Below, piece by piece: positions 1 through 56,841 of a stretch of DNA of 64,000 bases (within the stretch, counting starts at the first letter, position 1; every line of letters begins with the position of its first letter). Made by a program: the position numbers and the translations under genes. Origin of the DNA: Patescibacteria group bacterium UBA2773 (GTDB lineage: Bacteria > Patescibacteriota > Minisyncoccia > Moranbacterales > DUUL01); NCBI GenBank assembly GCA_002352465.1, contig DEIN01000017.1, positions 777 to 64,776 on the forward strand. Direction: 5' to 3'. The notes beneath the pieces were generated by a model. It searched no databases and was not told where the DNA came from. It was given only the letters and a program-made list of their open reading frames with translations.

Positions 1-1
1 T

Positions 2-3000
2 TCTTTGCTTTTCAAGAAAACAGGAGAAGTTAGGGAACAAGAAATCTTTTTGACCGATTTTCCTTTGATGACTGAGCGAGGAACTTTTATTATCAATGGA
101 ATCGAGAGAGTTGTGATTTCTCAGATAATCAGAAGTCCTGGAGTTTTCTTTACGATGAATTATCAAAAAGGTAAAAAACTTTTTGGAGCCAAGATTATTC
201 CTAATAAAGGGGCTTGGTTCGAATTTGAGACTGATTACAATAATGTTATTTGGGTTAAAATTGATCGAAGACGAAAAATTCCAGCTACTTCTTTGCTGAA
301 AATTTTTGGTTTGGGAACAGAAGAAGAAATTCTTGAAGTCTTCAAGGATGTTGATACTCAAGAAGACTCATATATAAAAGAGACTTTAAATAAAGATATT
401 ACCAAAACTGTTGGGGAAGCTTATAAAGAAATTTATAAACGATTAAGACCAGGAGATTTGGCTACGCAAGAAAATGCTAAACAAATTATTGATAGTATGT
501 TTTTTGGTTTTGATCGATATGATTTGAGTAAAGTTGGTCGATATCGAATGAATGCCCGATTGGGAATGAACAAGAGTGAAGAAAACGAAGCCGATCGAAT
601 TTTAACCAAGGACGAGTTGGTAATGATTTTAAAAGAAGTCATTAATTTAAATAATGATCCAGAAGCTCAACCAGATGACATTGATCATTTAGGTTCAAGA
701 CGAATTAGAGGTGTGGGTGAATTAGTTCAAAATCGAGTTCGAGTAGGATTGGCTCGAATGGTGCGAAATATTCGAGACCGAATGAGCACTTCTGACAGTG
801 CAACTGTGATGCCTGGTCAGTTGATTAATCCTCGACCGACTGCAACTGTGATTAAAGAATTTTTTGCTTCATCTCAACTTTCTCAATTTATGGATCAAAT
901 TAATCCATTGGCTGAATTGGAACATAAACGACGGATTAGTGCGATGGGTCCTGGTGGATTGGCACGAGAGCGAGCGGGATTTGAAGTGCGAGATGTGCAT
1001 TCTTCTCATTATGGAAGAATTTGCCCAGTGCAAACTCCAGAAGGTCCAAATATTGGTTTGGTTGGTCATTTAGCGACTTACGCTAAAATCAATAAGTATG
1101 GATTTTTGGAAACTCCTTATCGACCAGTCGGCGAAACCATTAAAATTGATGAAAGTATTGAAGAATGGACGGGAAGAATTTTAGAAGAAGATGTTAAAAC
1201 TGCGGCGGGAAAAGTTTTATTTAAAAAAGGATACTCAGTTAAAGGAACTGATTTAGCTGAAATTAGAAAATCTGGGAAAAAAGAAATTAAGGTCCACATC
1301 TTTATTAAAAGTGATGTTCAATATTTGAATGCCTTAGAAGAAGAACAACATCGAATTGTTCACGCTGGAATTAACGTTGATGAATTTGACAATATTTTTG
1401 AAAAAGAAGTTGACATCAGACATAAAGGAACGCCGAAGACTTGTGAAATCAACGAAGTTGATTACGCGGATGTTTCTTCTAAACAATTTATTTCAGTGGC
1501 GACGGCCTTGATTCCTTTCTTGGAACATGATGATGCTAACCGGGCTTTAATGGGTTCAAATATGCAAAGACAAGCAGTTTCTTGTATTCAACCTCAGGCT
1601 CCATTTGTTGGAACTGGATTAGAAGATAAAGCAGCCGCTGATTCTGGCCAAGTTATTTTAGCCAGGGAAGATGGTGTTGTCACAGAAGTTGATGCTAATC
1701 ACGTGGTGGTTAAATATCAAGAAAAAGGCAAAGCCAAGAAACGAGAACATATTTTGCAAAATTTTGTGAAATCTAATGGTTATACTTGTATGAATCAAAT
1801 TCCTCGAGTAGATCGAGGACAAGCAGTAAAAGTCGGTGATCTTTTAGCCGATGGAGCCTCTACTGAAAATGGAGAAATTGCTTTGGGACAAAATATTTTG
1901 ACTGCTTTAATGTCTTGGGAAGGATATAATTTTGAAGATGCGATTATTATTTCTAAGAAATTACTAAAAACCGATAATTATAGCTCAATTCATATTGAAG
2001 ATTTTAAAATTGATGTTCGAGATACTAAGCTTGGGCCAGAAATTGTTACGAGAGATATTCCAAATATTTCCGAAGACCGATTGAAAAACTTGGATGAAAC
2101 TGGCATTATCCGAATTGGAGCTGAAATTGGTTCTGGCGATATTCTTGTTGGTAAGGTGACTTTGAAAGGTGAAGGTGATTTGACTGCTGAAGAGAGGTTA
2201 TTGCGGGCAGTGTTTGGTGAAAAAGCTCGAGACGTTAAGGATACTTCTTTATATTTACCTCATGGTGAAAGTGGAAAAGTAGTAGACATCAAAATTTTCT
2301 CTAGAGAACAGGGAGATAAATTATCCGCCGGAGTAATTCAACAAATTCAAATTTCGATTGCTCAACTTCGAAAAATTTCCGTTGGAGATAAGTTGGCGGG
2401 ACGACATGGAAACAAAGGGGTAATTTCTCGAATTGCGAATGAAGAAGATATGCCCTTTTTGCCAGACGGAACTCCAATCGATTTAATTTTGACTCCTTTG
2501 GGAGTACCTTCTCGAATGAATCTAGGTCAAATCCTTGAAATTCACTTAGGTTGGGCGGCTTCTGTTCTGGGGTATAAAGCGGCAACTCCAGCTTTGAGCG
2601 GAGTGACAAAAGAGCAAATAAAAGCGGAATTGAAAAAAGCTGGTTTGCCAGAAGACGGAAAGATGAACCTTATCAATGGTAAGACGGGCGAACCTTTTAC
2701 TGAGAGAACGACGGTTGGTAGAATGTATATTTTGAAACTGAATCATTTGGTTGAAGATAAATTGCATATGCGTTCAATCGGTCCTTACTCTTTAATCACT
2801 CAACAGCCATTAGGAGGTAAAGCTCAGTTTGGTGGACAAAGATTTGGAGAAATGGAAGTATGGGCGCTTGAAGGTCATGGAGCAGCCAATGTTTTACAAG
2901 AGATGTTGACTATTAAATCTGATGATGTTCTAGGTAGATCTAATGCCTATGAATCAATAATCAAAGGTGAAAAAATTAATCAACCTAATATTCCAGCGGC

Positions 3001-3103
3001 TTTTCACGTGCTTGTGAATGAATTGAAAGCTTTGGCTTTAGATGTCAATCTTTTTCGATCAAGTGGAGAAAAAAGCACTGCAACTAACTCTTTAAACTTT
3101 TAA
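2..3103 (+). CDS. rpoB: DNA-directed RNA polymerase subunit beta (5' end cut by window edge)
   Basis: A 1032-aa ORF enters from the window start. RpoB hallmark segments are present (..RISAMGPGGL.., ..NFEDAIIIS.., ..QRFGEMEVWALE..). The gene is directly followed by rpoC. Confidence 0.95.
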   Translation, partial: SLLFKKTGEVREQEIFLTDFPLMTERGTFIINGIERVVISQIIRSPGVFFTMNYQKGKKLFGAKIIPNKGAWFEFETDYNNVIWVKIDRRRKIPATSLLKIFGLGTEEEILEVFKDVDTQEDSYIKETLNKDITKTVGEAYKEIYKRLRPGDLATQENAKQIIDSMFFGFDRYDLSKVGRYRMNARLGMNKSEENEADRILTKDELVMILKEVINLNNDPEAQPDDIDHLGSRRIRGVGELVQNRVRVGLARMVRNIRDRMSTSDSATVMPGQLINPRPTATVIKEFFASSQLSQFMDQINPLAELEHKRRISAMGPGGLARERAGFEVRDVHSSHYGRICPVQTPEGPNIGLVGHLATYAKINKYGFLETPYRPVGETIKIDESIEEWTGRILEEDVKTAAGKVLFKKGYSVKGTDLAEIRKSGKKEIKVHIFIKSDVQYLNALEEEQHRIVHAGINVDEFDNIFEKEVDIRHKGTPKTCEINEVDYADVSSKQFISVATALIPFLEHDDANRALMGSNMQRQAVSCIQPQAPFVGTGLEDKAAADSGQVILAREDGVVTEVDANHVVVKYQEKGKAKKREHILQNFVKSNGYTCMNQIPRVDRGQAVKVGDLLADGASTENGEIALGQNILTALMSWEGYNFEDAIIISKKLLKTDNYSSIHIEDFKIDVRDTKLGPEIVTRDIPNISEDRLKNLDETGIIRIGAEIGSGDILVGKVTLKGEGDLTAEERLLRAVFGEKARDVKDTSLYLPHGESGKVVDIKIFSREQGDKLSAGVIQQIQISIAQLRKISVGDKLAGRHGNKGVISRIANEEDMPFLPDGTPIDLILTPLGVPSRMNLGQILEIHLGWAASVLGYKAATPALSGVTKEQIKAELKKAGLPEDGKMNLINGKTGEPFTERTTVGRMYILKLNHLVEDKLHMRSIGPYSLITQQPLGGKAQFGGQRFGEMEVWALEGHGAANVLQEMLTIKSDDVLGRSNAYESIIKGEKINQPNIPAAFHVLVNELKALALDVNLFRSSGEKSTATNSLNF

Positions 3104-3178
3104 ATAATTTCTTAATCAGAATTATTTTCAGAAAATTTTTAAAAAATAGAGTCTGATCATAATTTAAATCCAAAATCA

Positions 3179-6100
3179 ATGGCTGATAAAATAACGAAAA
3201 TTTCCGATTTCAATGTAGTCCAGCTTAAATTGGCTTCCCCCGAAACTATCCTAGGATGGTCTAGCGGAGAAGTGACACGACCAGAAACAATTAACTATCG
3301 AACTCAAAAATACGAGAAAGATGGGTTATTTTGTGAGAAAACGTTTGGTCCTTCTAAAGATTGGGAATGTGCTTGTGGAAAATATAAAAAAATTAGATAT
3401 AAGGGTATTGTTTGTGATAAGTGTGGGGTGGAAGTGACTCGGTCAATCGTTCGACGAGAAAGAATGGGCCACATTCAATTGGCGACTCCAGTTTCCCATA
3501 TTTGGTTTTTGAAAGGTTTGCCATCGAAAATTGGTTTGGCTTTGGATTTGCCTTCTCAAATTTTAGAAAAAGTTGTTTATTTTGCTGGTTATATTATCAC
3601 TGTGGTTGATGAAGAAGCGCGACAAGAAGCGCTAGATAGTTTGGCGGTAGATTGTAAAAAACAGTTGAAAACGGCTGATGGTAAGGAAAATAAAGCTGAT
3701 TTAAAGAAAATTTTTAAACAGACTGAAAATGAGTTAAATAATCTCAAAGTCAAACAGGTTTTGAGCGAAATTGAATATTATGATTTTTCTCGAAAGTTTG
3801 GACAAGTTTTTAACGCGTCTATTGGAGCTGAAGCAATTGAAAAATTATTGTCAGAGATTGACTTAGACAAAGAAATCAAGTTTTTAGAAACAGACGTTGA
3901 TAAAAAAACTGCTATTGATCGAAAGAAAATTATTAAAAGATTGAGATTATTTAAAGGTTTTAAGTTGGCTGATTTAAAACCAAGTTGGATGATGCTTAAG
4001 GTTATTCCAATTATTCCTCCAGATATTCGACCAATGGTTCAACTGGATGGTGGACGATTTGCTACTTCTGATTTGAACGATCTTTATCGAAGGATTATTA
4101 ATCGGAATAATCGTTTGAAAAAATTGATTAGTCTGGGAGCGCCAGAAGTTATTCAGCGAAATGAGAAACGAATGTTGCAAGAAGCAGTGGACGCTTTATT
4201 GGACAACAGCACTCGAAGAAATCAAACTCGTGTCACGGCTTCAACCGGACAAAATCGAGCTTTGAAATCAGTTGCTGATATGCTTAAAGGAAAGCAAGGT
4301 CGTTTTCGACAAAATTTATTGGGTAAACGAGTTGATTATTCTGGACGAAGTGTGATTGTGGTTGGTCCAAATCTTAAATTGGACGAATGTGGTATTCCTA
4401 AAAAAATGGCGTTGGAATTATTCAAGCCATTTATTATCAACAAATTAATCGAGAATGAACATGCTCATAATGTTCGAATTGCGGGACGAATGGTGGATGA
4501 TGAAGCCGAGGAAGCTTATGAAATGTTGGAAAAAATTATTGATCATCAATACGTGATGTTGAATCGAGCTCCAACTTTGCATCGTTTGTCAATTCAAGCT
4601 TTTCGACCAAAATTAATTGAGGGTAAAGCAATTCAAGTTCATCCTTTAGTTTGTGCCGCTTTTAACGCTGATTTCGATGGAGATCAAATGGCGGTTCACG
4701 TTCCGTTGACGGAAAAAGCTCGAGTAGAATGTGAAGAAATTATGCTTTCTAGTCGAAATTTATTGAAACCATCTAGTGGTGATCCAATTGTAAATCCTTC
4801 TCAGGATATTGTTTTGGGAATTTATTACTTAACTCAAATCAAAGATGGGCTGAAAGGCGAGGGTAAATATTTTTCTTCTATTGATGAAGTTATAAAGGCT
4901 TATCAAGCTGGGGTTGTTAATTTGAGAGCCAAGGTTACTTTGTATTTTGAAGATGGTAAAAAAATTGAAACTTCAGCCGGACAAGCTAGTTTGAATGATA
5001 TTTTGCCAGAAAGTATGGAATATTTGAGTAAGACTTTGGACAAAAATGATATAAAAAACTTGATTGCTAAATTTTTATTAATAGAAGGCAAGGAGGCTAC
5101 GGTTGATTTCTTGAATAAATTGAAGCAATTGGGCTTTAAGTATGTGACAAAATCAGGAATTAGTTTAGGAATGGACGATGTGACAATCCCTGAAGCTAAG
5201 AAAGCTTTAATCGCGGAAGCCGAAAAATTAGTAAAAAATGTTAATAATCAGTTTGAAGAAGGTCTTTTAACTGATGAAGAGCGAAAATCTAAGGTAATCG
5301 AAATTTGGAATGATACAAAGAATAAGATCGCTGAAGAAGTTAAAAAAGTGATTGATCCAGAAAGTCCAATTCATTCTATGATTACTTCTAAAGCTAGAGG
5401 GTCTGAATCGGTAGTAGTTCAAATGGTTGGAATGAAAGGTTTAGTGGCTGGTCCAACGGGAGAAACAATTGAATTGCCAGTGAAAGGTTCTTTGAAAGGG
5501 GGATTTGGAGTATTGGAATATTTCATTTCTACTCATGGAGCTCGAAAGGGTATGGCTGATACGGCCTTGAGAACGGCGACAGCGGGTTATTTGACTCGAC
5601 GGTTGGCTGATGTGGCTCAAGACGTGATTGTAAAGGAGAACGATTGTGGTGATACCAAGGGAACTTATATGTATGTTGCGGATGCCGAAAGTATTGGACA
5701 AAGTTTTGCTTCAAGGATTGTGGGGCGGGTTTTAGTGGAAGATGTGCTTAATCCTGATAACAAAGAAAAACTTGCGAAAAAAGGTGATTTGATTAATCAT
5801 GATCAAGCTAAAGCGATTGAAGAGGTCAAAGTCGATCGGATTAAAATCAGAAGTTTGATCACTTGCAAGACGCATCGAGGAATTTGTCAGAAATGTTATG
5901 GATTGGATTTAGGCCGAAATCATTTGGTTCAACTAGGTGAAGCGGTTGGAATTGTGGCAGCGCAATCAATCGGAGAGCCAGGAACTCAGTTAACGATGAG
6001 AACCTTTCATATTGGTGGAGTGGCTGGAACTGATATTACTCAAGGTTTGCCTCGAGTAGAGGAAATTTTTGAAAATCGAACTCCAAAAACCGAAGGAATT

Positions 6101-6763
6101 ATTGCTGAGTTTGATGGACGAATAATTGAAGTTAAAGAAAATCACAAGCAAAAAATTATTCGAGTTCAAAAGCAAGCCGAAGAAGGCAAGAAAGTTGGAG
6201 CAGATGCTGATATTAAGGAATATATTATTCCAGCGGTAATTAATGCTAAGGTTAAACAAGGTGACGAAGTTAAGAAAGGGCAAGTTTTATCTGAAGGTCA
6301 TTTAGATCTAAAGAAATTATTCAAAATTAATGGAGAAGAAGCTCTTCATAGATATATTGTTCAAGAAGTTCAAGAAATTTATCAAACTCAAGGTGAGGGA
6401 ATTAATGATAAACATCTAGAAATTGTTGTGCGAAGAATGCTTTCTCGAGTAAAAGTCACTCATTCTGGAGATACTGATTTATTAGAAGGTGACGTAGTTG
6501 AGATTGAGCGATTCGAAGAAGTCAATATTGAAGCTAGGGAAAGCGGACTTAAGGAATGCAAAGGTGAAAGATTAGTTTTGGGAATTTCCAAGGTTGCTCT
6601 TTCAACTGGAAGTTTCTTGTCAGCGGCTTCTTTCCAAGAAACTGCTAAAGTTTTGATTAATGCGTCAGTGCAAGGGAAGTGCGACTACTTACGAGGACTT
6701 AAAGAGAATGTAATTATTGGAAAGCTTATCCCCGCTGGTACAGGCTATCGTTCGAAGCTTTAG
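3179..6763 (+). CDS. rpoC: DNA-directed RNA polymerase subunit beta'
   Basis: 1194-aa ORF with an N-terminal Zn finger (CxxC..CxxC) and the catalytic [14 protein letters not shown] motif. It sits in the canonical position after rpoB. Confidence 0.95.
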
Positions 6764-6769
6764 GTCGTG

Positions 6770-6900
6770 TTAAGTCTGCTCATTTGGCGAACTTCGTTGT
6801 CGGGCTTCTCATCTCTCGCTCAATGTACCATTAAGTACATTTCGCTTGCTACTCAAGTCTTCCTAGAATTTTCCTCAAATGAGCAAACCTTGAAGCTTGT
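6770..6900. repeat. Dispersed repeat family 1 copy (directly after the rpoC stop)
   Basis: ggcgaacttcgttgtcgggcttctcatctctcgctcaatgtaccattaagtacatttcgcttgctactcaagtcttcctagaattttcctcaaatgagc. Confidence 0.65.
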
Positions 6901-6979
6901 TCTACCGTGCTCAAATTTTAAAGCTTTGATTTGTAAAAAGTTTATAAAGATTTTTAGATAAAAAACCACTCTAAGTAGA

Positions 6980-7030
6980 CTGGGACTTAAAAAGTAGACA
7001 CAAAATGTCTACTTTTTGGGTCCCAGTTTT
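6980..7030 (+). terminator. Rho-independent terminator after rpoC (21-bp stem with two U·G pairs, followed by TTTT)
   Basis: Inverted repeat ctgggacttaaaaagtagaca / caaa / atgtctactttttgggtcccag, then tttt. Confidence 0.7.
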
Positions 7031-7080
7031 AAGGATTGGTTTTTTGGGGTTTCTAATTTGATATTTAATACAAAAGAGAA

Positions 7081-7120
7081 GATCATCTTAAAATTTCTTA
7101 ATAAGATGATCTTTTTTCTT
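7081..7120 (+). terminator. Second hairpin followed by a T-run after rpoC
   Basis: Arms gatcatctt ... aagatgatc followed by ttttttctt. Confidence 0.6.
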
Positions 7121-7505
7121 TAAACGGAGCTTTTACTTAATCTTTGGATGGAGATTAAGTTTTTCTAATTCTGTTGTTATTTTTTGTTCCTCTTAGTTTA
7201 AGCATAACGTCTATGTTCAAAGTCCTTTTTATTTTGTAGTTTTCGTTGTTTTTTCTCATGAAACACCTTTCGTGTTTCTTGATTAACTTCCTTATTTACC
7301 TTTTTCAGATTACACCATATTTTTAGCTTTTGTTAAAAGTAGTATCGAAATAATAGCAAAAAATTAGGAACAACTAGAAATTTGAATTATGTAATTAATT
7401 ATGTAGTTGTCCCTTACTTTTTTATAAAATAAAATTGAAAAATACTTGATTACTAGGGTTCTATCTGAAATTGGTTTTGATTGCAAGCGTTAAAAGAAAG
7501 GAAAA

Positions 7506-7536
7506 TAAAAAAACATCGAGTTAACGATGTTTTTTG
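7506..7536. terminator. Palindromic hairpin flanked by A- and T-runs (bidirectional terminator, 3' of rpsT)
   Basis: The sequence aaaaaaacatcgagttaacgatgttttttt lies immediately downstream of the rpsT stop. Confidence 0.65.
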
Positions 7537-7560
7537 AAGTTGAATTCTAGTTAATCGAAA

Positions 7561-7827
7561 TTATTTTTTCAAAGCTACGATTTTTTTGACTAAGCTGGAT
7601 TTTCTTCGAGCGGCGGTGTTTTTTTTTAAGATTCCTTTTTTCATTGCTTTGTCGATGGTTTGTTGAGCTGATTTGAATAATTTTTCAGCTTCTGGTCGAT
7701 CTTTGACTAAAATAGCATCTCTAACTTTTCGGATAGCGTTTTTCATTGAAAGTTTAGTTTTTTTATTGAAAGCATTTTTTTTAGCTGTCACTTTCACATA
7801 TTTTTTGGCAGCGTCAAGAATTGGCAT
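7561..7827 (-). CDS. rpsT: 30S ribosomal protein S20
   Basis: 88-aa basic protein. Its pattern MPI..AKK..K...K...N...KS..K..I....A.......A...F......D.A.KKG....N.AAR.KS.L resembles S20. Confidence 0.8.
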   Translation of the reverse strand: MPILDAAKKYVKVTAKKNAFNKKTKLSMKNAIRKVRDAILVKDRPEAEKLFKSAQQTIDKAMKKGILKKNTAARRKSSLVKKIVALKK

Positions 7828-7966
7828 ATAAATTATTTTAAAACATATTAATAGTGCTTTTAGCGAGCACCTTTATTACTGGTTAATATTAGCATGGTCT
7901 GGAAAGTTTGTAAAGATAATGATATTATTAAAACAATTGAAATTGTAAATTATAAATTTGGATCCA

Positions 7967-8536
7967 ATGATTGGAAAATTAAAAGGAGCGGTTGATTATT
8001 TCGGAGTAGGTTATTTAATTTTGGACGTTAATGGCGTGGGTTATAAGGTATCTTGCAATGAATTGACTTTGGCTAAAGCCTCCAGTCAAGAAACTTTTGA
8101 GCTTTTTATTTATACCCACGTGAAAGAAGATCAATTGTCATTGATTGGGTTTGAGACGCAAGATGAATTGGAACTGTTCGAGCTTTTGATTTCAGTTTCA
8201 GGCGTGGGTCCTAAAGCGGCTTTGAATATTTTGAATATTGCTTCTCCGGACGTGGTAAAAACGGCGATTGTTAATCAGGATCCAAGTATTCTGACTCAAG
8301 TATCAGGAATCGGAAAAAAGACGGCTGAGCGATTAATTTTGGAATTGCAAAATAAGGTTAAGAATTTTTCTTCAGTGGTGCAACAAACAGCACAAGGAGA
8401 TCAAGATGTTATCGAAGCTTTAGTTTCAATGGGCTATAATATTAGTGAGGCGAGAGAGGCGGCGAAGAGTGTTTCGGTTGAGGTGAAGGATGTTTCAGAA
8501 AGAATTAAGCTGGCCCTCAAATCCATGCGTCAATAA
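7967..8536 (+). CDS. ruvA: Holliday junction DNA helicase RuvA
   Basis: It starts MIGKLKG...GVGY, like RuvA. A helix-hairpin-helix region (VSGVGPKAALNIL; VSGIGKKTAERLILEL) is present. The ATG at 7967 is preferred over the upstream TTG. Confidence 0.85.
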   Translation: MIGKLKGAVDYFGVGYLILDVNGVGYKVSCNELTLAKASSQETFELFIYTHVKEDQLSLIGFETQDELELFELLISVSGVGPKAALNILNIASPDVVKTAIVNQDPSILTQVSGIGKKTAERLILELQNKVKNFSSVVQQTAQGDQDVIEALVSMGYNISEAREAAKSVSVEVKDVSERIKLALKSMRQ

Positions 8537-8554
8537 TTAAGGTCAGAAACTTTA

Positions 8555-8665
8555 TATTTGGTGTATTTTTTTGTCAAATTCTCCGTTGCTTTTCGATGTG
8601 CCATTCAGCACATCTCATACGCTACTCGAATTTTTCTCAAACTGCCCTCGAATATATAGTTTCTG
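8555..8665. repeat. Dispersed repeat family 1 copy (after ruvA)
   Basis: ggtgtatttttttgtcaaattctccgttgcttttcgatgtgccattcagcacatctcatacgctactcgaatttttctcaaactgccctcgaa. Confidence 0.75.
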
Positions 8666-8784
8666 TTATGCTGGATGAGATTGTTTTCGGTTATAGCTTT
8701 ATTACAAATTGAAACTGGGTTTAAATTTGTATTTTGATTAGTTGAGTGTGGGTGATTATTGAGTGAATAATAATATTTTTAGGA

Positions 8785-9735
8785 ATGGATAAAAGAGAAA
8801 AGTTTTTAGCGGAAAATAGTTTGGATGGGGGATTTTTACAATCGGAATATTGGATGGCTTTTCAGGCGGAATTAAAACAAAAGTTTTATTTAGTGGAAAG
8901 TGAAGAAAATCAAGTCTTGGTGATTGAGAATAAATTGTCGTTGGTGGGTAAATATTTTTATTTGCCGAGAGGTCCAATCTTTTCTGAAAATAAGAAAGAT
9001 AATCAAGTTTTGATAAAAAAAATTAAAGACTTGGCGATTAAAAACAAGATTGGTTGGATTCGAATGGAACCACAAAGAAAAGCTGATTTAAGCCAGGTTA
9101 AAGAAAAATTAATTAAGGCTTATAAAAATCATCAACCAGCTGAAACTTTGAGTCTGGATTTGGCTTTGAGCTTGGATGAAATTTTAGCTGGGATGAAGCA
9201 GAAAACTCGTTATAATGTTCGTTTGGCTGAAAAAAAAGGAATTAAAGTTGAAGTTTTGACGGATAGCAAGAATTTAGAGATTTTTTGGAAATTGGCTCAA
9301 GAAACTGCGCAAAGAGATGGAGCTTCTTTCCATGGAAAGCAATACTATCAAAAGATGTTTAAAGCAATTCCAGCGGAGAATTTAAAGCTTCTAGTAGCTT
9401 TTAGTGGAAGTCAACCAGTCGGAGCGATTATCATTAGCTTTTTTGGGGGAGTGGCGACTTATTTACACGGAGCTTCTGCTAATAAACATCGGAATTTGAT
9501 GGCTAATTATTTTTTGCAATGGGAGGCAATCAAATATGCTAAAGAATGGGGAGCGTTGAAGTATGATTTTTTTGGAATAGCAGTTGAATTAAATAGAAAA
9601 AAGTGGTTAGGAATAACTCGTTTTAAGACTGGTTTTTGCTCAAAATGTGAGCCGACTATTTTTCCGGGTTGTTATGACTTGATTTTGAATCCATTAAAAT
9701 ATTGGATTTATAGAATATTACAATTTTTTAAATAA
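8785..9735 (+). CDS. FemAB-family peptidoglycan interpeptide-bridge peptidyltransferase (lipid II aminoacyl transferase-like)
   Basis: The N-terminus (FLQSEYWMAF...) and its ~316-aa length fit the FemX/FemAB family (PF02388-like). It lies adjacent to a Mur ligase. Confidence 0.55.
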   Translation: MDKREKFLAENSLDGGFLQSEYWMAFQAELKQKFYLVESEENQVLVIENKLSLVGKYFYLPRGPIFSENKKDNQVLIKKIKDLAIKNKIGWIRMEPQRKADLSQVKEKLIKAYKNHQPAETLSLDLALSLDEILAGMKQKTRYNVRLAEKKGIKVEVLTDSKNLEIFWKLAQETAQRDGASFHGKQYYQKMFKAIPAENLKLLVAFSGSQPVGAIIISFFGGVATYLHGASANKHRNLMANYFLQWEAIKYAKEWGALKYDFFGIAVELNRKKWLGITRFKTGFCSKCEPTIFPGCYDLILNPLKYWIYRILQFFK

Positions 9736-9739
9736 AATT

Positions 9740-11023
9740 ATGAATGCTAAAAGAAATTTTCAAAAAATTAAAAATATTTATCATTTATTGAAAGCGATTA
9801 TTGCTAATTTTCGGTTTATGTTCCCTTCGAGAAAAATAACAGTGATTGGCGTGACAGGAACTAACGGTAAAACTACGACAGTCCAGATGATCGGGAAAGT
9901 TTTGGAGGCGACTGGGAGAAAGGTGGCGGTTTATTCCACTATTAACTTTAAAATTGGAGATGAGGAGGAAATTAATAAAACTAAATTTACTACTCAGTCA
10001 GCTTGGAGTTTGCAGAAATTTATTGCTAAAGCTCTTAAAAATAATTGTGAGTATTTGGTGCTGGAAACTTCTTCGCACGCTTTGGATCAATTTCGAGTTT
10101 GGGGAGTTGATTATAATATGGCGGTGGTAACTAATATCACTCGAGAGCATTTAGATTATCATTTGACGATGGCTGATTATCGAAAAACAAAATTGAAATT
10201 ATTTAAAACGGTTGCTAATTCTTGGCGAAGGACGACCAGAACGGCAATTATTAATCAAGATATGGAAAAATATCAAGATTTTATTCTGCCTAAAATGGAT
10301 GAGAATTTTTTGTATAGTTTGAAGTCGAAAAAAACAGAAGCAGAAAAAAATATTCAAATGACGGCTGAAAAAATATTAGCCAAAGGTTTTGAAAGCCAAT
10401 TTTTGGTTAATGGAACAGATTTTAAATTAAAATTACCAGGGAAGTTTAATATTGAGAACGCCTTGGTAGCGATTTGCGTTGGGGTCTCTCAAGGCATCGC
10501 GATGGACACAATCAGTAAGAAATTAGCAAAAATCGAAAGTATTCCAGGTCGAATGGATTTTGTGAAAAACAAAAAAGGACTCAAGATAATTGTCGATTAT
10601 GCTTTGACCCCTGATTCAATGGAACAAATTGGAGCAATGCTGAAAACTATTAAAAAACAAAGTGAGGCTAAATTGATTTGGGTTTTTGGCAGTTGCGGAA
10701 ACCGAGATCAAGGCAAAAGGCCAATTATGGGAGAAATCGTTTCTAGATTTGCTGATTATACAATTGTGACCAATGAAGATCCTTATGACGAGGATCCAGT
10801 CAAAATTATTGAAGCAATTGAGAGCGGGATCAAAAATAAAAATAAAGAAAAATTTGCTCGGATAGTTGATAGAAAAAAAGCCTTAAAGAAGGCTCTTGAA
10901 ATTGCGAAAAAGGGTGATGTGGTTTTGGTGACTGGCAAGGGGGCGGAAGAAAATATGTTGATTGGTTCTAAAAAAATTCCTTGGAATGACAAACGAGTTA
11001 TTCAAAAGATTTTGAATAATTAA
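9740..11023 (+). CDS. murE: Mur ligase family protein, MurE-like (UDP-MurNAc-tripeptide synthetase)
   Basis: P-loop GVTGTNGKTTT. The central and C-terminal Mur ligase domains are present (DYALTPDS..., FGSCGNRDQGKRPIMG). Confidence 0.6.
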   Translation: MNAKRNFQKIKNIYHLLKAIIANFRFMFPSRKITVIGVTGTNGKTTTVQMIGKVLEATGRKVAVYSTINFKIGDEEEINKTKFTTQSAWSLQKFIAKALKNNCEYLVLETSSHALDQFRVWGVDYNMAVVTNITREHLDYHLTMADYRKTKLKLFKTVANSWRRTTRTAIINQDMEKYQDFILPKMDENFLYSLKSKKTEAEKNIQMTAEKILAKGFESQFLVNGTDFKLKLPGKFNIENALVAICVGVSQGIAMDTISKKLAKIESIPGRMDFVKNKKGLKIIVDYALTPDSMEQIGAMLKTIKKQSEAKLIWVFGSCGNRDQGKRPIMGEIVSRFADYTIVTNEDPYDEDPVKIIEAIESGIKNKNKEKFARIVDRKKALKKALEIAKKGDVVLVTGKGAEENMLIGSKKIPWNDKRVIQKILNN

Positions 11024-11080
11024 ATTTTCAATAAACCAATTTTCAATTTGCAATCAATTTTCAATGATTTAATTTTCAAA
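11024..11080. repeat. AT-rich repeat family 2 units in reverse orientation (AATTTTCAAT)
   Basis: aattttcaataaaccaattttcaatttgcaatcaattttcaatgatttaattttcaaat. Confidence 0.5.
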
Positions 11081-11338
11081 TAAAACAAAAGTAATATTAG
11101 TTAAAGCTTTAATTTTATGATAGGTGTTGGCAGGAATTTTTATTTCCGCTGGAGCCTTAGACTTCCAAATTTTATTATCCACAGTTATTTCAGCAATGCC
11201 AGTAATTAGGTAGATTAATTCTTTTGGATTTTCAGCGTTGTCTCCGGCAATGCTGTTTTTGTTTCTATACAAAATTTTGAATCCAGGAGTTGATGTTTCA
11301 AAAGTTTTCCCGTCTTGATTTTTTTTGATTAGTCTCAT
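11069..11338 (-). CDS. Small cupin-fold protein
   Basis: 89-aa beta-rich sequence of cupin type (..IYLITGIAEITVDNK..IPANTYHKIKAL..). Confidence 0.4.
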   Translation of the reverse strand: MRLIKKNQDGKTFETSTPGFKILYRNKNSIAGDNAENPKELIYLITGIAEITVDNKIWKSKAPAEIKIPANTYHKIKALTNITFVLFEN

Positions 11339-11339
11339 T

Positions 11340-11780
11340 TTAAATTTTTGAAAAAAGATAGAAAAATAAATTAGCTAAAATAATTCCAAAAAGAATTCCT
11401 ACTAAAACCTCTGAAAAACGATGTCCAATTCGTTCTTTTAATTTGGGAAAATCTTTGGCGTCCATTTTTAAAGATTGAACTAGCATATTCAAATATCGGC
11501 CTTGATCACCTAGATACATTCGAAGTCTCAGGGCGTCATCAATTATAATAATACTCATGGAAAAAGCGACTAAAAAAGTTCCGCTATTGAATCCAGTCAA
11601 TCGACCAGTGGTGATGACGAGAGCGGTTACAAAAGCACTATGAGTAGATGGCATATGACCGTGAGTGAATAAGTGATCCCATTTAAATCCGTGTTTGTAG
11701 GTATAAATAGCAAATTTGGTCAATTGGGTTATTCCTCCAACTAGAACCGGAATTATAATATATAGATAATTAGTTTCCAT
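11340..11780 (-). CDS. Divergent PAP2 / DUF212 family membrane protein
   Basis: A GHMPSTHSAFVTAL motif and a ~146-aa hydrophobic protein. Confidence 0.5.
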   Translation of the reverse strand: METNYLYIIIPVLVGGITQLTKFAIYTYKHGFKWDHLFTHGHMPSTHSAFVTALVITTGRLTGFNSGTFLVAFSMSIIIIDDALRLRMYLGDQGRYLNMLVQSLKMDAKDFPKLKERIGHRFSEVLVGILFGIILANLFFYLFSKI

Positions 11781-11819
11781 TTTTTTAACTTAAATATTAT
11801 TTTTTTAAAGCGCTGATAG

Positions 11820-12848
11820 TTAACTTTGAATATGACCAGTTTCGTAAATTTCCAACAAAGAAATAAATAAGGTTATCACGACTGGACCAACGACAAAGCC
11901 AAGTGGTCCGAAAAAAGCAATTCCTCCTAGCGTGGCCAAAAAAACCAATAAGGGATGCAAGCTAGTTTGGCCTTCGATCAGCTTGGGTCTTAGAAAGTTA
12001 TCAATACTGCTGATGATAACTGCTCCGACTGCTAAGACAAAAATTCCTTGCCAATAATAACTCAAGGCTATTAAGACTAATCCAATTGGAAGCCAAATTA
12101 AGAAGGCCCCAAGTAAGGGGATAATTGAAATTAAAGTGGTCACCATTCCCCACAGAGTCGGAGCTTGAACTCCGGCAATCCAAAAGGTAATTCCCATTAG
12201 AAGCCCTTGGACGAGAGCGATAATCAAGGTCCCTTTGATAGTGGCCAAGGTCATTGTGTTGAATTTTTCAAAAAGTTCTCGTTCTTGTCCGGAAGGTAAG
12301 GTGCTCAGTTTCATTATTTTTTTAATAATCAAATCGCCGTCTTTGAAGAAATAGTAAAGAGCAAAAAAACAAACTACTATAATAAAAATAAAATTACTAG
12401 TTCCTTTGTAGATAGCCTTAATTGTAGCAAACAAATAGTTAGTAATATTTTGAGCACCTTTTGTTATTTGTTCAAAGCTTCCGTCGGATTGAAGTGCTTG
12501 TTCAAGGTTTAACGATTTTGCAATCGGTAGATTTTTGAGAGAATCAAGGCTGAAGGAAATATTCTTAGTTTGTACTTCTTTGATCAAAGAATCCGCCTCA
12601 GAAATAACCAAGGCTGAAATTGCTAGAAAGGGAATAATCAAAATTAGCATTACCCATAAACACATCAAGAAAGAAGACCAGGCTCGATGATTTTTTAATT
12701 TTTTAGCTAATTTTTTGTTGGTTTTACTGAATAAAGTGGCTAAAATAAAGGCTAGGAGAATGGATAGCAAAAAAGGCTTCATAACAAAGAAAGAACCAAT
12801 CCCCGCTGAGATAATTAAGAAAAGTAGAAAATAATTATTTTTTTTCAT
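11820..12848 (-). CDS. AI-2E family transporter (PerM/UPF0118)
   Basis: 342-aa polytopic membrane protein. The C-terminal ..LATLGGIAFFGPLGFVVGPVV.. is typical of the AI-2E family. Confidence 0.6.
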   Translation of the reverse strand: MKKNNYFLLFLIISAGIGSFFVMKPFLLSILLAFILATLFSKTNKKLAKKLKNHRAWSSFLMCLWVMLILIIPFLAISALVISEADSLIKEVQTKNISFSLDSLKNLPIAKSLNLEQALQSDGSFEQITKGAQNITNYLFATIKAIYKGTSNFIFIIVVCFFALYYFFKDGDLIIKKIMKLSTLPSGQERELFEKFNTMTLATIKGTLIIALVQGLLMGITFWIAGVQAPTLWGMVTTLISIIPLLGAFLIWLPIGLVLIALSYYWQGIFVLAVGAVIISSIDNFLRPKLIEGQTSLHPLLVFLATLGGIAFFGPLGFVVGPVVITLFISLLEIYETGHIQS

Positions 12849-12925
12849 TTTATTTAAATAATTTTTTAGATTTAATTTTAGTATAGCTTAAAAGTAGAAT
12901 AATTTAAATTAAACTTTCTTGCAGT

Positions 12926-14395: not shown

Positions 14396-14991
14396 TAGAT
14401 TAATTGGTTAATTTTTTGTTGAATTTTTGGTTTGCTGTTATTGCCGTCAATTTTTGTTAATTTCCATTTTGTTGAAAAATAATCGTAAAGATTATTTTTA
14501 TTAATTAAATAGTCTTTTCCTTGTTCAATTTTTCGATCTCGTTCTAGAATTTTTTCAGGAGTTATTTTCAGATAAATTTTTAAAGAGGGTTCAATCAGTT
14601 GATTTTCCACAATAGCTTGCCAAAAAGGTTTTTTCTTCCAACTATTTTTTGAGTCAAGATACTTGATATTAACGATTTGATCATAGAAATAACGATCTAC
14701 TATAATGTAATTAATTTTATTTTCGTGAGTTTTTACTAGGTAATAAAAACGAAATCTAAAAACATCAATAATAATCGCAATTTTTCTTAAAAAAATTCCA
14801 AAAAAGCCCGCTTTATTTTGAGCTTTAGATCGACTTGAAGAAGTTTTTTTCTTCAAGATTTTATTGGCAATTGAAAAAGTTACCATATGAAATCGTTTGA
14901 CTTGAAATTTATTTTTTAATTTTTCTTCAATCAAATCGAGTTGAGTGGTTTTTCCTGATCCGTCTAGTCCGGAGATAGTTATTAGTTTCAT
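14395..14991 (-). CDS. Thymidylate-kinase-like P-loop kinase
   Basis: Walker A ISGLDGSGKTTQ and a DRY-type motif (VDRYFYDQ). It is divergent from canonical Tmk. Confidence 0.45.
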   Translation of the reverse strand: MKLITISGLDGSGKTTQLDLIEEKLKNKFQVKRFHMVTFSIANKILKKKTSSSRSKAQNKAGFFGIFLRKIAIIIDVFRFRFYYLVKTHENKINYIIVDRYFYDQIVNIKYLDSKNSWKKKPFWQAIVENQLIEPSLKIYLKITPEKILERDRKIEQGKDYLINKNNLYDYFSTKWKLTKIDGNNSKPKIQQKINQLI

Positions 14992-15024
14992 GGGATTGCA
15001 AGATTTAAAAATTTAGTACACTTT

Positions 15025-15090
15025 TTTGCTTTGTCTTGCCGTAGCTTTAGCGCAAGCGAATCGAATTTTTTGCCTGTTGATAGGTGGTTT
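15025..15090. repeat. Partial copy of dispersed repeat family 1 (5' module joined to the gccgtagctttagcg module)
   Basis: tagtacacttttttgctttgtc + ttgccgtagctttagcgcaagcgaatcgaatt matches the modules of the copy at 49013–49260. Confidence 0.55.
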
Positions 15091-15182
15091 TGCTACTTTC
15101 TTATTGTATTATTTATTGAAATGGTTATTAATTTTATATCTTATTTTCTAACTTTATAAACTTTAAAACTTTTTAACTTTCT

Positions 15183-34439: not shown

Positions 34440-34550
34440 GGGCGAAACCAGCTGTTCGGCACATTTCTTTGTCAAAAACTCCGTTGCTTTTCGATGTACC
34501 TCGGTACATCTCATACGCTACTCGTTTTTTCCTCGAACTGCACTCAAACA
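34440..34550. repeat. Dispersed repeat family 1 copy (REP/MITE-like, with conserved hairpin gatgtacc-tc-ggtacatc)
   Basis: ggcacatttctttgtcaaaaactccgttgcttttcgatgtacctcggtacatctcatacgctactcgtttttcctcgaactgcactcaaa, 3 nt after the PBP stop. Confidence 0.75.
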
Positions 34551-34573
34551 ACTGATTTCTGTAAATCGTTGAT

Positions 34574-38275: not shown

Positions 38276-38284
38276 GTTTGAGAT

Positions 38285-38395
38285 TTTGGCACACTTCTGC
38301 GTTGAAATTTTCGCTTTTCTCTCAACGTATCTTTCAATACGTTTCGCTCAATGCTCAATTTCGCCTTGAATTGCACTTAAAATCTCAAGCCCAGG
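38285..38395. repeat. Dispersed repeat family 1 copy with a compensatory hairpin variant (aacgtat-ctttcaa-tacgtt)
   Basis: ggcacacttctgcgttgaaattttcgcttttctctcaacgtatctttcaatacgtttcgctcaatgctcaatttcgccttgaattgcacttaaaa, directly after the eno stop. Confidence 0.65.
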
Positions 38396-38479
38396 TGTAT
38401 ATTGAAATTTTTGTTTCTTATTTTGTTTTAAATATTAAGGTTCATTTCTAATGGGTAATTTTATGAAGAAAAAAAATTA

Positions 38480-38830: not shown

Positions 38831-38902
38831 AAATTTTTCAAAATATAGATACTGAAAATCCGCTTGGAAGAGCGGATTTTTGTTAAATTTATTATTTTTG
38901 AT

Positions 38903-48318: not shown

Positions 48319-49002
48319 GGAGCAAAAGATTTGGCAAAAAAATTAAACTTATCTTTTAAGAATTTTAAACTTTTGCAAGAAGCATTGACTCATCGGTCTT
48401 ATTTAAACGAAAATCGACAACATCAATTGCCTCACAATGAAAGATTAGAATTTTTGGGAGATGCAGTTTTGGAGTTGTCCGTCACGGATTATCTTTTTAA
48501 AAATTATAAAAATCCGGAGGGAGAATTGACCAGTTGGCGAGCTGCTTTGGTCAATGGCGAGATGTTGGCAATTGTGGCTAAAGAAATAGATTTAGATGAT
48601 TTCTTGTTGATGTCAAAAGGAGAAAAGAAAGATACAGGGAAAGCTCGAAACTACATTTTGGCTAATGCTATGGAAGCGTTAATCGGAAGTATTTATTTGG
48701 ATAAAGGTTTTGCTGAAGTGGATAAATTTATCAACAAATATATCATTGTTAAATTGCCGGAAATTATTAAAAACAAAACTTATCTTGATGCTAAAAGCTA
48801 TTTTCAAGAAAAAGCCCAAGAAATTGTGCAAGTGACTCCTCACTATGAATTAGTTAAAGAATGGGGACCAGATCATGACAAGAAATTTAAGATTGCGGTT
48901 TTTTTGAAGGAGGAAAAGGTGGCGGAGGGAGAAGGGGAATCGAAGCAGGAAGCGCAGAGAAATGCAGCCCAAAACGGCCTACTCGCCAAAAACTGGGAAT
49001 AG
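48307..49002 (+). CDS. rnc: Ribonuclease III
   Basis: RNase III signature HRSY..NERLEFLGDAVLEL, with a C-terminal dsRBD. Confidence 0.9.
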   Translation: MENQGAKDLAKKLNLSFKNFKLLQEALTHRSYLNENRQHQLPHNERLEFLGDAVLELSVTDYLFKNYKNPEGELTSWRAALVNGEMLAIVAKEIDLDDFLLMSKGEKKDTGKARNYILANAMEALIGSIYLDKGFAEVDKFINKYIIVKLPEIIKNKTYLDAKSYFQEKAQEIVQVTPHYELVKEWGPDHDKKFKIAVFLKEEKVAEGEGESKQEAQRNAAQNGLLAKNWE

Positions 49003-49012
49003 AACTTGATTT

Positions 49013-49260
49013 TTTGGCGTACTTCTTTGTCAAATCCTGCGTCACTCACTCGATGTACCAGTTTAGTACATCTCATTCCTTACTCGGATTTTCCTCGAAT
49101 TACGCTCAAAAACTTAAGTTCCTGAAAGCGTTTTTTGATTTCGTCTTTGCCTCGGCGTAGCTTTAGCGAAGACGGATCGAATTAAATTCAAAATAACAAG
49201 CCTTGAAATCATTATGACACTCAAATTCTCTTCGAACTGCACTAGAATTTGAAAATTTTA
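49013..49260. repeat. Composite copy of dispersed repeat family 1 (full unit plus extra modules)
   Basis: ggcgtacttctttgtcaaatcc...cgatgtaccagtttagtacatctcattccttactcggattttcctcgaattacgctcaaaa, then gcctcggcgtagctttagcgaagacggatcgaatt, and a second ...cttcgaactgcactagaatttgaaaa. Confidence 0.7.
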
Positions 49261-49373
49261 GCTTTTGCTGATATCTATTAATCCAAGAAGGCTTAAATTT
49301 TTCTTGAACTTTGCTCAAAATAAAAAGTTGTTAACAATGATGACTGATGACCAGTTGCTGTTGAATTGTTTTG

Positions 49374-56805: not shown

Positions 56806-56841
56806 AAAGTTTATAATGCTCTCTGAGTGCAAAATTCAAAA

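What the first reader, a model, noticed from the sequence alone, without database searches (positions are those of the whole stretch)
6770..6900. Dispersed ~100–130-bp intergenic repeat family with a conserved hairpin showing compensatory base changes; the five full copies sit immediately 3' of plus-strand genes
Copies are found at 6770–6900 (after rpoC), 8555–8665 (after ruvA), 34440–34550 (after the PBP), 38285–38395 (after eno) and 49013–49260 (after rnc). A partial copy lies at 15025–15090. Each full copy starts within ~0–20 nt of the stop codon.

The modules are conserved: a 5' block GGC(R)YACTTCTTTGTCAAA, a hairpin, the block CATCTCATACGCTACTCG, and then TTTTCCTCGAAcTGCACTCAAA. The hairpin stem differs between copies but keeps complementarity. 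The variants are gatgtacc/ggtacatc (two copies), gatgtgcc/ggcacatc, atgtacc/gtacat and aacgtat/tacgtt. These are covarying changes, so selection appears to act on an RNA or DNA secondary structure rather than on the sequence.

The family behaves like REP/BIME- or MITE-like elements, or like a family of 3'-UTR structured RNAs acting as terminator or stabiliser modules. I do not recognise it as a described element.
Basis: seen in the sequence. Interest (0 to 1): 0.6.

Follow-up and report, generated by a model that had tools for sequence, protein, structure and literature searches.

The report
Palindromic repeat element in a CPR bacterium
The repeats are real copies of an undescribed ~125-base hairpin-forming repeat family from tiny Moranbacteria-like (CPR) bacteria; it behaves like selfish palindromic DNA (it even sits in-frame inside a gene) rather than a dedicated 3'-end RNA signal, and the hairpin is kept intact over long evolutionary times.

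Summary
The window has five full copies, all on the + strand: 6770-6895, 8544-8668, 34442-34564, 38272-38397 and 49000-49126. Four arm fragments are also present. Each copy is one long imperfect hairpin, not only an apical hairpin.

- Across 23 distinct copies, 92.5% of pair cells are paired and 31 of 39 pairs show two-sided changes. Shifted controls give about 45% pairing.
- No Rfam, plasmid, phage or literature match was found.
- The host is a Moranbacteria-like CPR bacterium. Related metagenomes and MAGs hold about 35 more copies.

The 3'-UTR RNA or terminator reading is not the best fit.
- Family-wide, copies lie in both orientations relative to genes (15 co-oriented, 9 anti-oriented loci).
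- They occur in tandem, truncated and nested.
- Presence differs between syntenic genomes.
- One copy lies in-frame inside dus, is translated as a disordered loop, and keeps its pairing across four lineages.
- Classical terminators lie downstream of the elements.
- Orientation follows GC skew in 36 of 39 copies (22 of 25 loci).

Best reading: a non-autonomous palindromic repeat of the MITE / Rickettsia-palindromic-element kind that acts at the single-stranded DNA level. RNA hairpin effects on mRNAs are probably secondary. It is a new member of a known kind, of moderate interest.

The parts
6770..6895 (+). Full copy c1. It begins 6 nt (stem 10 nt) after the rpoC TAG stop. Bona fide hairpin terminators follow at about 6955-7045 and 7078-7120.
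   Evidence: CM R1 120.8 bits; sequence; fold
8544..8668 (+). Full copy c2, 7 nt after the ruvA TAA stop and upstream of a femAB-family gene. It is absent at the syntenic site in L008.
   Evidence: CM 130 bits
34442..34564 (+). Full copy c3, 4-6 nt after the PBP TAG stop. The same site is occupied in L027 (with a mini-hairpin insert) and holds a half copy in L029.
   Evidence: CM 122 bits
38272..38397 (+). Full copy c4. The eno TAG stop lies in the basal stem. The site is occupied in L026 and L024 and empty in L027 and L029.
   Evidence: CM 120.3 bits; identical in an independent assembly
49000..49126 (+). Full copy c5. The rnc TAG stop forms the first bases of the stem.
   Evidence: CM 126.6 bits
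49126..49205 (+). Degenerate left-arm fragment carrying the small GC-rich side hairpin (CGTCTT...AAGACG).
   Evidence: Alignment A11; sequence
49219..49260 (+). Right-arm fragment.
   Evidence: nhmmer right-arm profile, E = 7.8e-4
49294..49328 (+). Right-arm fragment.
   Evidence: nhmmer right-arm profile, E = 8.6e-4
15012..15095 (+). Left-arm fragment with the mini-hairpin (CTTGC...GCAAG), between tmk and rtcB. Both genes are on the - strand, so the fragment is antisense to local genes but concordant with GC skew.
   Evidence: Alignment A11

Best explanation
This is a lineage-specific family of non-autonomous palindromic repeat DNA, of the MITE / Rickettsia-palindromic-element kind, in Moranbacteria-like CPR bacteria.

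Anatomy
- A conserved core of about 95 nt runs from TTTGGC..ATTTCTTTGTCAAA through an apical hairpin to TTTTCCTCGAA.TG.ACTCAAA.
- The core is closed by a 10-23 bp outer stem that differs from locus to locus.
- The total length is about 118-127 nt.

Proposed behaviour (inferred unless marked shown)
- It spreads at the DNA level, probably as a single-stranded hairpin exposed during replication.
- It settles on or next to stop codons, often supplying a TAG or TAA and sometimes the last codons of the gene (shown for the overlap with stops).
- It can be tolerated in-frame inside a gene (shown for dus).
- Once resident it persists through speciation (shown).
- Its pairing is kept either by selection on the hairpin or by hairpin-templated correction of one arm from the other (inferred). 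The stem can grow outward into native flanking sequence (shown for recR).
- Because it lies between stop codons and terminators or between cistrons, mRNAs carry it in either orientation. The resulting imperfect RNA hairpin of about 55 bp is a plausible RNase III or exonuclease-blocking site, but that is a secondary and untested effect.

Shown: repeat family, hairpin, compensation, mixed orientation relative to genes, in-frame copy, gain and loss, link to GC skew.
Inferred: single-stranded DNA mobility, the cause of pair maintenance, any effect on RNA.
For: Family and structure
- Five window copies score 120-130 bits. Copies also occur in three GTDB MAGs, many metagenome contigs and syntenic relatives.
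- Across 23 distinct copies, 92.5% of cells are paired and 31 of 39 pairs have two-sided changes. Slid controls give 22-45% pairing.

Mobile or selfish behaviour
- Three tandem copies in L003.
- Solo arms and truncated copies.
- Nested inserts.
- Differences between syntenic genomes: present after ruvA in the window but absent in L008; eno and nrdD sites occupied in some relatives only.
- The L008 rpoC copy is closer to the window copies c3 and c2 than to its positional counterpart c1.
- Two non-allelic copies share the outer stem AAAACTAAAAAT/ATTTTTAATTTT.

In-frame copy in dus
- The Pfam Dus match is split in two stretches and the reading frame stays open.
- A ~40-aa insert is present in four lineages, partly deleted in two and absent in seven.
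- In the AlphaFold model the insert is a loop with pLDDT below 50 in an otherwise confident barrel.
- The five orthologous dus copies are 91% paired, with 19 of 41 pairs changed on both sides against 1-7 in slid controls.

Orientation
- Relative to transcription: 15 loci co-oriented, 9 anti-oriented.
- Relative to GC skew: 36 of 39 copies, or 22 of 25 independent loci, are concordant. My binomial two-sided p is about 1.6e-4.
- Wherever gene direction and skew conflict with clear skew, the element follows skew: dus, def-priA in L029, dus-dxr in L035, L020 1-121 and the window 15012 fragment.
- The purine-rich strand folds more stably in all five window copies, as RNA and as DNA.

Not a terminator
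- No U-tract in any copy, and classical terminators occur elsewhere and downstream.

Stop codons
- Genes followed by an element end in TAG in 4 of 5 cases, against 9 of 48 other genes in the window. My hypergeometric p is about 0.01.
- Eno orthologues without the element end in TAA or TGA.

Stem extension
- The stem pairs with the native recR codons GAA ATT TAG.
Against: - No transposase or other partner protein was found in the window.
- No element arms flank an IS-like unit in about 353 kb of related DNA.
- Target-site duplication is unproven. TA..TA flanks are seen in only about 6-7 copies, and TA is self-complementary.
- No very recent insertion with a clean empty site was recovered.
- Strong conservation of the core, unpaired loops included, between genomes whose enolases are only 74-90% identical, together with in-situ maintenance of pairing, would also fit a host function.
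- The skew-versus-transcription contrast rests on about five clearly discriminating loci.
- Three copies are discordant with skew.
- Skew sign is weak (|skew| below 0.07) for seven copies.
Confidence: 0.62

Rival explanations
1. It is a cis-acting structured RNA module of mRNA 3' UTRs or intercistronic regions, selected by the host. The long hairpin directly after the stop codon would block 3'-5' exonucleases, act as an RNase III processing site, or modulate termination of translation or transcription.
For: - All five window copies are co-oriented with the upstream gene and start 0-10 nt after its stop codon.
- The elements lie upstream of the real terminators or between cistrons, so they are transcribed.
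- Covariation is extensive.
- The core is conserved across diverged genomes.
- RNase III is encoded in the window.
- Precedents summarised in PMC10969869: Correia elements are cut by RNase III, ERIC elements at 3' ends alter mRNA decay, and QMITE2 of Coxiella lies in 3' UTRs.
Against: - Nine of 24 loci are antisense to the surrounding operon, with intact high-scoring copies.
- One copy is inside a translated ORF.
- There is no U-tract.
- G-U (25) versus A-C (38) counts give no preference for the strand co-oriented with genes.
- The strand co-oriented with genes is the weaker folder.
- Tandem, truncated and nested copies exist.
- Syntenic sites lack the element.
Confidence: 0.17
2. It is a REP/REPIN- or IS200/IS605-type hairpin element, mobilised as single-stranded DNA by a Y1 (HUH) transposase encoded elsewhere in the genome. 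This is a specific version of the mobile-DNA reading.
For: - The orientation bias relative to GC skew resembles the lagging-strand-template bias I recall for IS608/ISDra2 (Ton-Hoang et al. 2010); this is from memory and was not checked.
- The hairpin, rather than a duplex TIR, is the conserved feature.
- No clear direct target duplication is seen.
- Many copies have a TAG at the 5' foot of the hairpin, reminiscent of the GTAG tag of REPs (PMC3733652, title and abstract).
Against: - No Y1_Tnp or RAYT gene is present in the window.
- REPs are 20-40 nt, and REPINs conserve their ends rather than their centre. Here the centre is conserved and the ends vary.
- The base before TAG is not consistently G.
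- There is no conserved tetranucleotide 5' of the element.
Confidence: 0.15
3. The apparent compensatory evolution needs no selection. The arms of a quasi-palindrome correct each other by replication template switching, so the hairpin is a by-product of DNA mechanics in a neutral, decaying repeat.
For: - Pairing is kept even inside a coding sequence, where an RNA role is hard to see.
- In L021 the stem has been extended by an almost perfect (22 of 23) inverted copy of native recR codons and downstream flank.
- There is no wobble asymmetry.
- There is a link to replication direction.
- Quasi-palindrome templated mutagenesis is established in E. coli (my own knowledge, not checked here).
Against: - Template switching should erase mismatches. 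Yet the same asymmetric pyrimidine-rich internal loops are conserved in nearly all copies and genomes.
- Loop sequence conservation across genomes with 74-90% enolase identity implies constraint or recent spread.
Confidence: 0.05

Closest known systems
Rickettsia palindromic elements (RPE)
   Same: - Palindromic repeats of about 100-150 bp in a reduced genome.
- Found both between genes and in-frame inside housekeeping genes, where they are translated as tolerated peptide inserts (PMC10969869).
- Here this is the dus copy.
   Different: - No sequence relationship, and a different phylum.
- Only one intragenic site was found, against dozens for RPE.
- Most copies abut stop codons.
- The orientation bias with GC skew and the locus-specific outer stems are not features I know for RPE.
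Correia / ERIC / RUP-type bacterial MITEs
   Same: - Size about 100-150 bp and many dispersed copies.
- The whole element folds as an imperfect hairpin.
- Co-transcribed with neighbouring genes.
- Elements insert into one another, as pneumococcal BOX/RUP/SPRITE do.
- Possible TA flanks (for the known families; here).
   Different: - In MITEs the termini (TIRs) are the conserved part, and a TSD and a parent IS are known. Here the outermost 10-13 bp differ between copies, the TSD is unproven and no parent IS was found.
- No promoter or IHF site was identified.
REP/BIME and REPIN-RAYT systems
   Same: - Extragenic palindromes directly after genes.
- The hairpin is relevant in single-stranded nucleic acid.
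- Tandem clusters occur.
- Long persistence within genomes.
   Different: - REPs are 20-40 nt with a conserved GTAG or CGTC tag, and a RAYT gene accompanies them (PMC3733652, PMC3116915 abstracts).
- This element is a single rod of about 125 nt with a conserved centre.
- No RAYT gene was seen.
Intrinsic (Rho-independent) terminators
   Same: A hairpin immediately downstream of genes.
   Different: - No U-tract.
- AU-rich stems 55 bp long with internal loops.
- The genome's real terminators are short GC-rich stems with T-runs and lie downstream of the elements.

Membership tests
MITE (non-autonomous DDE-transposon derivative) | Small size (under about 300 bp), no coding capacity for a transposase, multiple dispersed copies | tested here: met
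   118-127 nt. Five full copies in 64 kb and about 39 copies or fragments across relatives.
MITE (non-autonomous DDE-transposon derivative) | Conserved terminal inverted repeats | tested here: inconclusive
   The core ends TTTGGC.../...CTCAAA are inverted and conserved. The true outermost 10-13 bp are only weakly conserved (YAGRAAYT) and otherwise locus-specific.
MITE (non-autonomous DDE-transposon derivative) | Direct target-site duplication | tested here: inconclusive
   TA..TA at the hairpin base in L001, L003, L006, L020-dus, L026, L027-nrdD and L024. Other copies show TA..TG, CA or TT. TA is self-complementary, so it cannot be told apart from stem. The dus insert is 118 nt + TA = 120 nt, which is in frame.
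MITE (non-autonomous DDE-transposon derivative) | Parent IS with matching ends in the same or related genomes | tested here: not met
   No transposase Pfam hit in the window. No separated arm pairs in 353 kb. Whole genomes could not be scanned.
Rickettsia palindromic element-like in-frame selfish DNA | Palindromic repeat inserted in-frame in a conserved protein gene and translated | tested here: met
   dus in L020, L033, L034, L035 and L036: ORF open, ~40-aa insert at one position, low-pLDDT loop.
REP / REPIN-RAYT | 20-40-nt REP units with a conserved GTAG or CGTC tag; a REPIN is two inverted REPs with a variable spacer | tested here: not met
   The centre is conserved and the ends vary. The base 5' of TAG varies (G, C, A or T).
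REP / REPIN-RAYT | Associated RAYT (Y1 transposase) gene | tested here: inconclusive
   None in the 64-kb window.
IS200/IS605-derived element | Strand-specific orientation relative to replication | tested here: met
   36 of 39 copies concordant with local GC skew. That skew reflects replication direction is an inference.
IS200/IS605-derived element | Insertion 3' of a fixed tetra- or pentanucleotide; distinct left-end and right-end subterminal hairpins | tested here: not met
   No conserved 5' flank motif. The element is a single rod.
Intrinsic terminator | GC-rich stem-loop followed directly by a U-tract | tested here: not met
   None of the five copies is called terminator-like and none has a T-run after the stem. 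Genuine terminators exist elsewhere.
Any Rfam 15 RNA family | Score at or above the gathering threshold | tested here: not met
   Only tRNA-Lys is found in the window. Permissive scans of two copies gave nothing meaningful.

The most novel reading that the evidence does not exclude
The element may be more than ordinary selfish DNA. It could be a replication-oriented single-stranded-DNA hairpin module with either a host role or a new mobility mechanism.

A host role could be a polar, strand-specific signal for lagging-strand processes or chromosome handling in CPR bacteria.

A new mobility mechanism could insert the conserved core and then build the locus-specific outer stem by fold-back copying of the flank. 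That would explain three things:
- every copy has its own perfectly paired outer stem;
- native stop codons and terminal codons are incorporated into the stem;
- pairing is kept even inside a coding sequence.
Probability: 0.12. Interest if true: 0.8.

Novelty: new member of a known kind. Interest (0 to 1): 0.45.

Why it matters
CPR/Patescibacteria genomes are small, streamlined and thought to be poor in repeats. A dense family of roughly one copy per 13 kb in this window is therefore unusual. This family overlaps stop codons, rewrites protein C-termini and adds a peptide loop to Dus, so it contributes to genome and protein evolution in these organisms.

The family is also a clean natural data set for two questions:
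- how long palindromes are maintained, by selection or by templated correction;
- why hairpin repeats are oriented with replication.

On the practical side, the covariance signal is strong enough to mislead RNA-motif discovery pipelines. Annotators of these MAGs should expect spurious small ORFs and altered gene ends at the elements.

Tried and rejected
Searches that found nothing
- Rfam at gathering and permissive thresholds.
- Viral-contig scans with two patterns. One gave nothing and the other gave two chance hits that the CM rejects.
- blastn against plasmids and phages.
- Literature searches for CPR repeats or MITEs found no description.
- A protein search with concatenated element translations, meant to census translated copies, gave no hit at E <= 1e-3. 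The segments are too short for a database of 5.8 billion sequences.
- Exact look-up of the RuvA ORF failed, probably because the true start differs from the TTG start used.

Ideas tested and dropped
- Deciding the RNA strand from wobble pairs: G-U 25 versus A-C 38, not informative.
- 'The core inserts into loops of pre-existing terminators'. Rejected because the genome's terminators are short, GC-rich and have T-runs, unlike the AU-rich outer stems. A copy with its own outer stem also lies inside a coding sequence.
- 'The outer stem is purely target-derived'. Rejected as a general rule because two non-allelic copies share it. 'The outer stem is purely element-borne' is also rejected, because native recR codons are paired. 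Both appear to occur.
- A search for an autonomous IS with the same arms found none in the sampled DNA.
- A sigma-70-like promoter on the minus strand appears in c2 only and is not a family feature.

Full report

Yes. Reading the six stated places shows the quoted blocks. A MAFFT alignment of the five full copies has 67% mean column identity.

A covariance model built from them (R1) finds exactly five strong matches in the 64 kb, all on the + strand, each scoring 120-130 bits:
- 6770-6895
- 8544-8668
- 34442-34564
- 38272-38397
- 49000-49126

The reverse strands of the same sites score 19-27 bits. Unrelated hairpins score below 24 bits.

Pfam confirms the upstream genes as rpoC, ruvA, a class A PBP, eno and rnc. 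The hairpins start 0-10 nt after the stop codons.

The region 49126-49330 is not part of copy 5. It holds a left-arm fragment and two right-arm fragments. The region 15012-15095 is a left-arm fragment.

The eno copy is identical in an independent Logan assembly. The window itself is 100% identical to an ENA contig of 129.7 kb.

**2. Anatomy**

The whole element is one imperfect rod, not just an apical hairpin.
- RNAalifold on the five copies gives 39 pairs on the + strand, 25 of them with compensatory changes, and 43 pairs on the - strand.
- The core from TTTGG to CTCAAA, including pyrimidine-rich internal loops on both arms, is conserved.
- The outer 10-13 bp are different in every copy yet complementary.
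- Both strands fold into the rod. The purine-rich (-) strand is more stable in all five copies, both as RNA (-35 to -47 versus -24 to -34 kcal/mol) and as DNA.

**3. Where else is it?**

Rfam has nothing at gathering or permissive thresholds.

A degenerate 32-nt pattern found 7 loci in three GTDB MAGs and 14 metagenome loci. The model then found further copies in them, giving 24 distinct sequences at that stage.

Enolase homologues place the organism among Moranbacteria-like Patescibacteria. The NCBI label 'Bdellovibrionales' on two of the MAGs is probably wrong.

On 23 distinct copies:
- 92.5% of pair cells are standard pairs;
- 31 of 39 pairs have two-sided changes;
- the covariation score is 0.53, against 0.04-0.14 when partners are slid by 1-3 columns.

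G-U (25) and A-C (38) mismatches are about equally common, so wobble pairs do not identify an RNA strand.

**4. Behaviour across related genomes**

L008 is syntenic with window 1-16000, with RpoC 88% identical. It has a copy after rpoC but none after ruvA.

Enolase-syntenic loci were obtained at 90, 85, 80 and 74% Eno identity. They show the following:
- The eno site is occupied in the window, in L026 and in L024. The L024 copy is interrupted by about 150 nt and is followed by a truncated second copy.
- The eno site is empty in L027 and L029, where eno ends in TAA or TGA instead of TAG.
- The PBP site holds a full copy in the window, a full copy with a 32-nt GC-rich insert in L027, and only a left half in L029.
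- The nrdD site is occupied only in L027.

L003 has three tandem copies.

The L008 rpoC copy is much closer to window copies c3 and c2 (7 of 45 unpaired differences for c3) than to its positional counterpart c1 (22 of 47). This points to turnover or conversion.

Two non-allelic copies, dnaB-recR in L021 and the dus copy in L020, share the same outer stem. So the stem can travel with the element.

Conversely, in L021 the right arm pairs with the native last codons of recR (GAA ATT TAG). Those codons are also present in relatives without the element. The arm is 23 nt long and 22 of 23 positions match. So stems can also be extended into the flank in situ.

**5. Not a terminator**

This genome uses classical GC-rich stems followed by T-runs. 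Such terminators lie downstream of the rpoC copy here and in L008. A consensus scan calls none of the elements terminator-like.

The elements therefore lie inside 3' UTRs or between cistrons and must be transcribed.

**6. Orientation**

In the window all copies are co-oriented with the upstream gene. Family-wide this fails. Intact copies lie antisense in several places:
- lgt > tsaD > miaA
- hsp20 > dnaK
- rplB > rpsS
- corA > cysS
- between priA and def

My count is 15 co-oriented versus 9 anti-oriented independent loci (two-sided binomial p about 0.3).

By contrast, orientation follows local GC skew. In 36 of 39 copies, or 22 of 25 independent loci (p about 1.6e-4), the pyrimidine-rich strand lies on the G-rich strand. 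The window has positive skew throughout, in both + and - gene blocks.

Where gene direction and skew clearly conflict, the element follows skew:
- the dus copies
- def-priA in L029
- dus-dxr in L035
- L020 1-121
- the window 15012 fragment

If the G-rich strand is the leading strand (general knowledge, inferred here), the weaker-folding strand sits on the lagging-strand template.

Caveats:
- Skew is weak for seven copies.
- Three copies are discordant.
- The discriminating loci are few.

**7. A copy inside a gene**

L020 1011-1137 lies inside dus.
- The Pfam Dus match is split into two stretches.
- The ORF stays open and gains about 40 residues.
- Homologues show the insert in four lineages (~72% Dus identity to the L020 Dus), partial deletions in two, and no insert in seven.
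- Intact 89-103-bit copies are present at the same codon position in L033, L034, L035 and L036.
- An ungapped alignment of the five orthologous copies is 91% paired. Nineteen of 41 pairs changed on both sides, against 1-7 in slid controls.
- AlphaFold places the insert (residues 97-130) as a loop with pLDDT below 50 in an otherwise confident Dus barrel with mean pLDDT 88.
- A relative without the core (L037) keeps a short outer-stem-like palindrome at the site. This is either a scar or an ancestral site.

This is the behaviour described for Rickettsia palindromic elements (PMC10969869). It is hard to reconcile with a dedicated 3'-UTR RNA function.

**8. Stop codons**

Genes followed by an element end in TAG in 4 of 5 cases, against 9 of 48 other genes in the window (p about 0.01).

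The stop codon is usually part of the basal stem. In dnaB the element supplies the last two codons as well.

In several copies the hairpin base is TA..TA, and the right-hand TA is followed by A or G. This would fit TA-targeted insertion into a stop codon. It is not proven, because TA is self-complementary.

**9. Partner protein**

None was found.
- No transposase domain appears in any window ORF.
- No separated arm pairs occur in about 353 kb of related DNA.
- There are no copies in viral contigs, plasmids or phages.

**10. Interpretation**

The most economical reading is a non-autonomous palindromic repeat family of the MITE/RPE kind that acts at the DNA level. Given the skew link, it probably acts in single-stranded form. 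Long-term maintenance of pairing could come from selection or from arm-to-arm templated correction.

RNA-level consequences are plausible, because either orientation places a ~55-bp hairpin in mRNAs, but they are untested. Candidates are RNase III cleavage, exonuclease blocking, and ribosome encounters at stop codons.

I rate this explanation at 0.62, the host-selected RNA module at 0.17, and a specifically HUH-mobilised element at 0.15.

It is a new family of a known kind. The unusual points are the locus-specific, fully paired outer stems, the retention of the hairpin within a coding sequence, and the orientation with replication.

Noticed in passing
window 49150-49176 and 15033-15058; L007 5789-5819; L027 ~6671-6702; L033 ~6040-6065; L029 ~13740-13768; L008 ~4300-4335; L035 ~9600-9700: A small GC-rich hairpin of about 25-32 nt sits inside the element. 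It always follows TTTCYTYG, in the left arm or, in the same strand sense, in the right arm. Its stem differs between copies but stays complementary: CCTGCC/GGCAGG, GCCTC/GAGGC, CTTGC/GCAAG, CGTCTT/AAGACG. It is either an optional side helix or a second, tiny site-specific insert.
   Followed up: partly
window 51671-51783; L008 6378-6500; L029 11260-11400; L038 13260-13435; L024 ~2080-2190: A second AT-rich palindromic intergenic family (…CAATATTCAATAATCAATATCCAA… paired with …TTGGATGTTGAATGGATATTGAGTATTGA…) recurs downstream of genes in several of these genomes. In some relatives it occupies sites that hold the main element in others.
   Followed up: no
window 38892-38939, 43537-43610, 49347-49420, 56746-56819: An AT-rich direct-repeat motif (TTGAAAATTGAAAATT…CATTGAAAATT) occurs upstream of gene starts (repeat finder families D3, D4 and D6). 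It may be a promoter or regulator-binding region.
   Followed up: no
window 45270-47360 and 47467-47703: nrdD is followed by a separate 78-aa ORF encoding a Zn-ribbon and the glycyl-radical motif (…VYSRIVGYIRPV…). The long ORF ends in a degenerate copy (…EIYSRVL*). The same two-ORF arrangement is present in all syntenic relatives. In L027 the repeat element sits exactly between the two ORFs.
   Followed up: partly
window 55746-56412: Internal tandem repeats of 93-348 nt periodicity (families D1 and D2) lie within ORF 55773-56459 (-). That ORF has a weak TolA C-terminal hit.
   Followed up: no
window 15183-16676 (-): An RtcB RNA ligase gene, with the arm fragment of the repeat immediately downstream of it.
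   Followed up: no
L002-L007 (CAYWJP01, CAZXUS01): MAGs labelled 'uncultured Bdellovibrionales' carry the element. They share gene content with Moranbacteria-like CPR genomes, and the closest named enolase and Dus homologues are Moranbacteria/Patescibacteria. The NCBI organism label is probably wrong.
   Followed up: partly
L024 1735-1885: The eno-site copy in this relative is split by an unrelated ~150-nt AT-rich insertion in its left arm, near the position used by the mini-hairpin. A truncated second copy follows it.
   Followed up: no
window 6955-7045: A very long bidirectional hairpin (AAAAAACCA…ACTGGGAC…GTAGACA/TGTCTAC…GTCCCAGT…TGGTTTTTT) lies between the convergent rpoC and rpsT genes. 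It is probably the real terminator of both.
   Followed up: no
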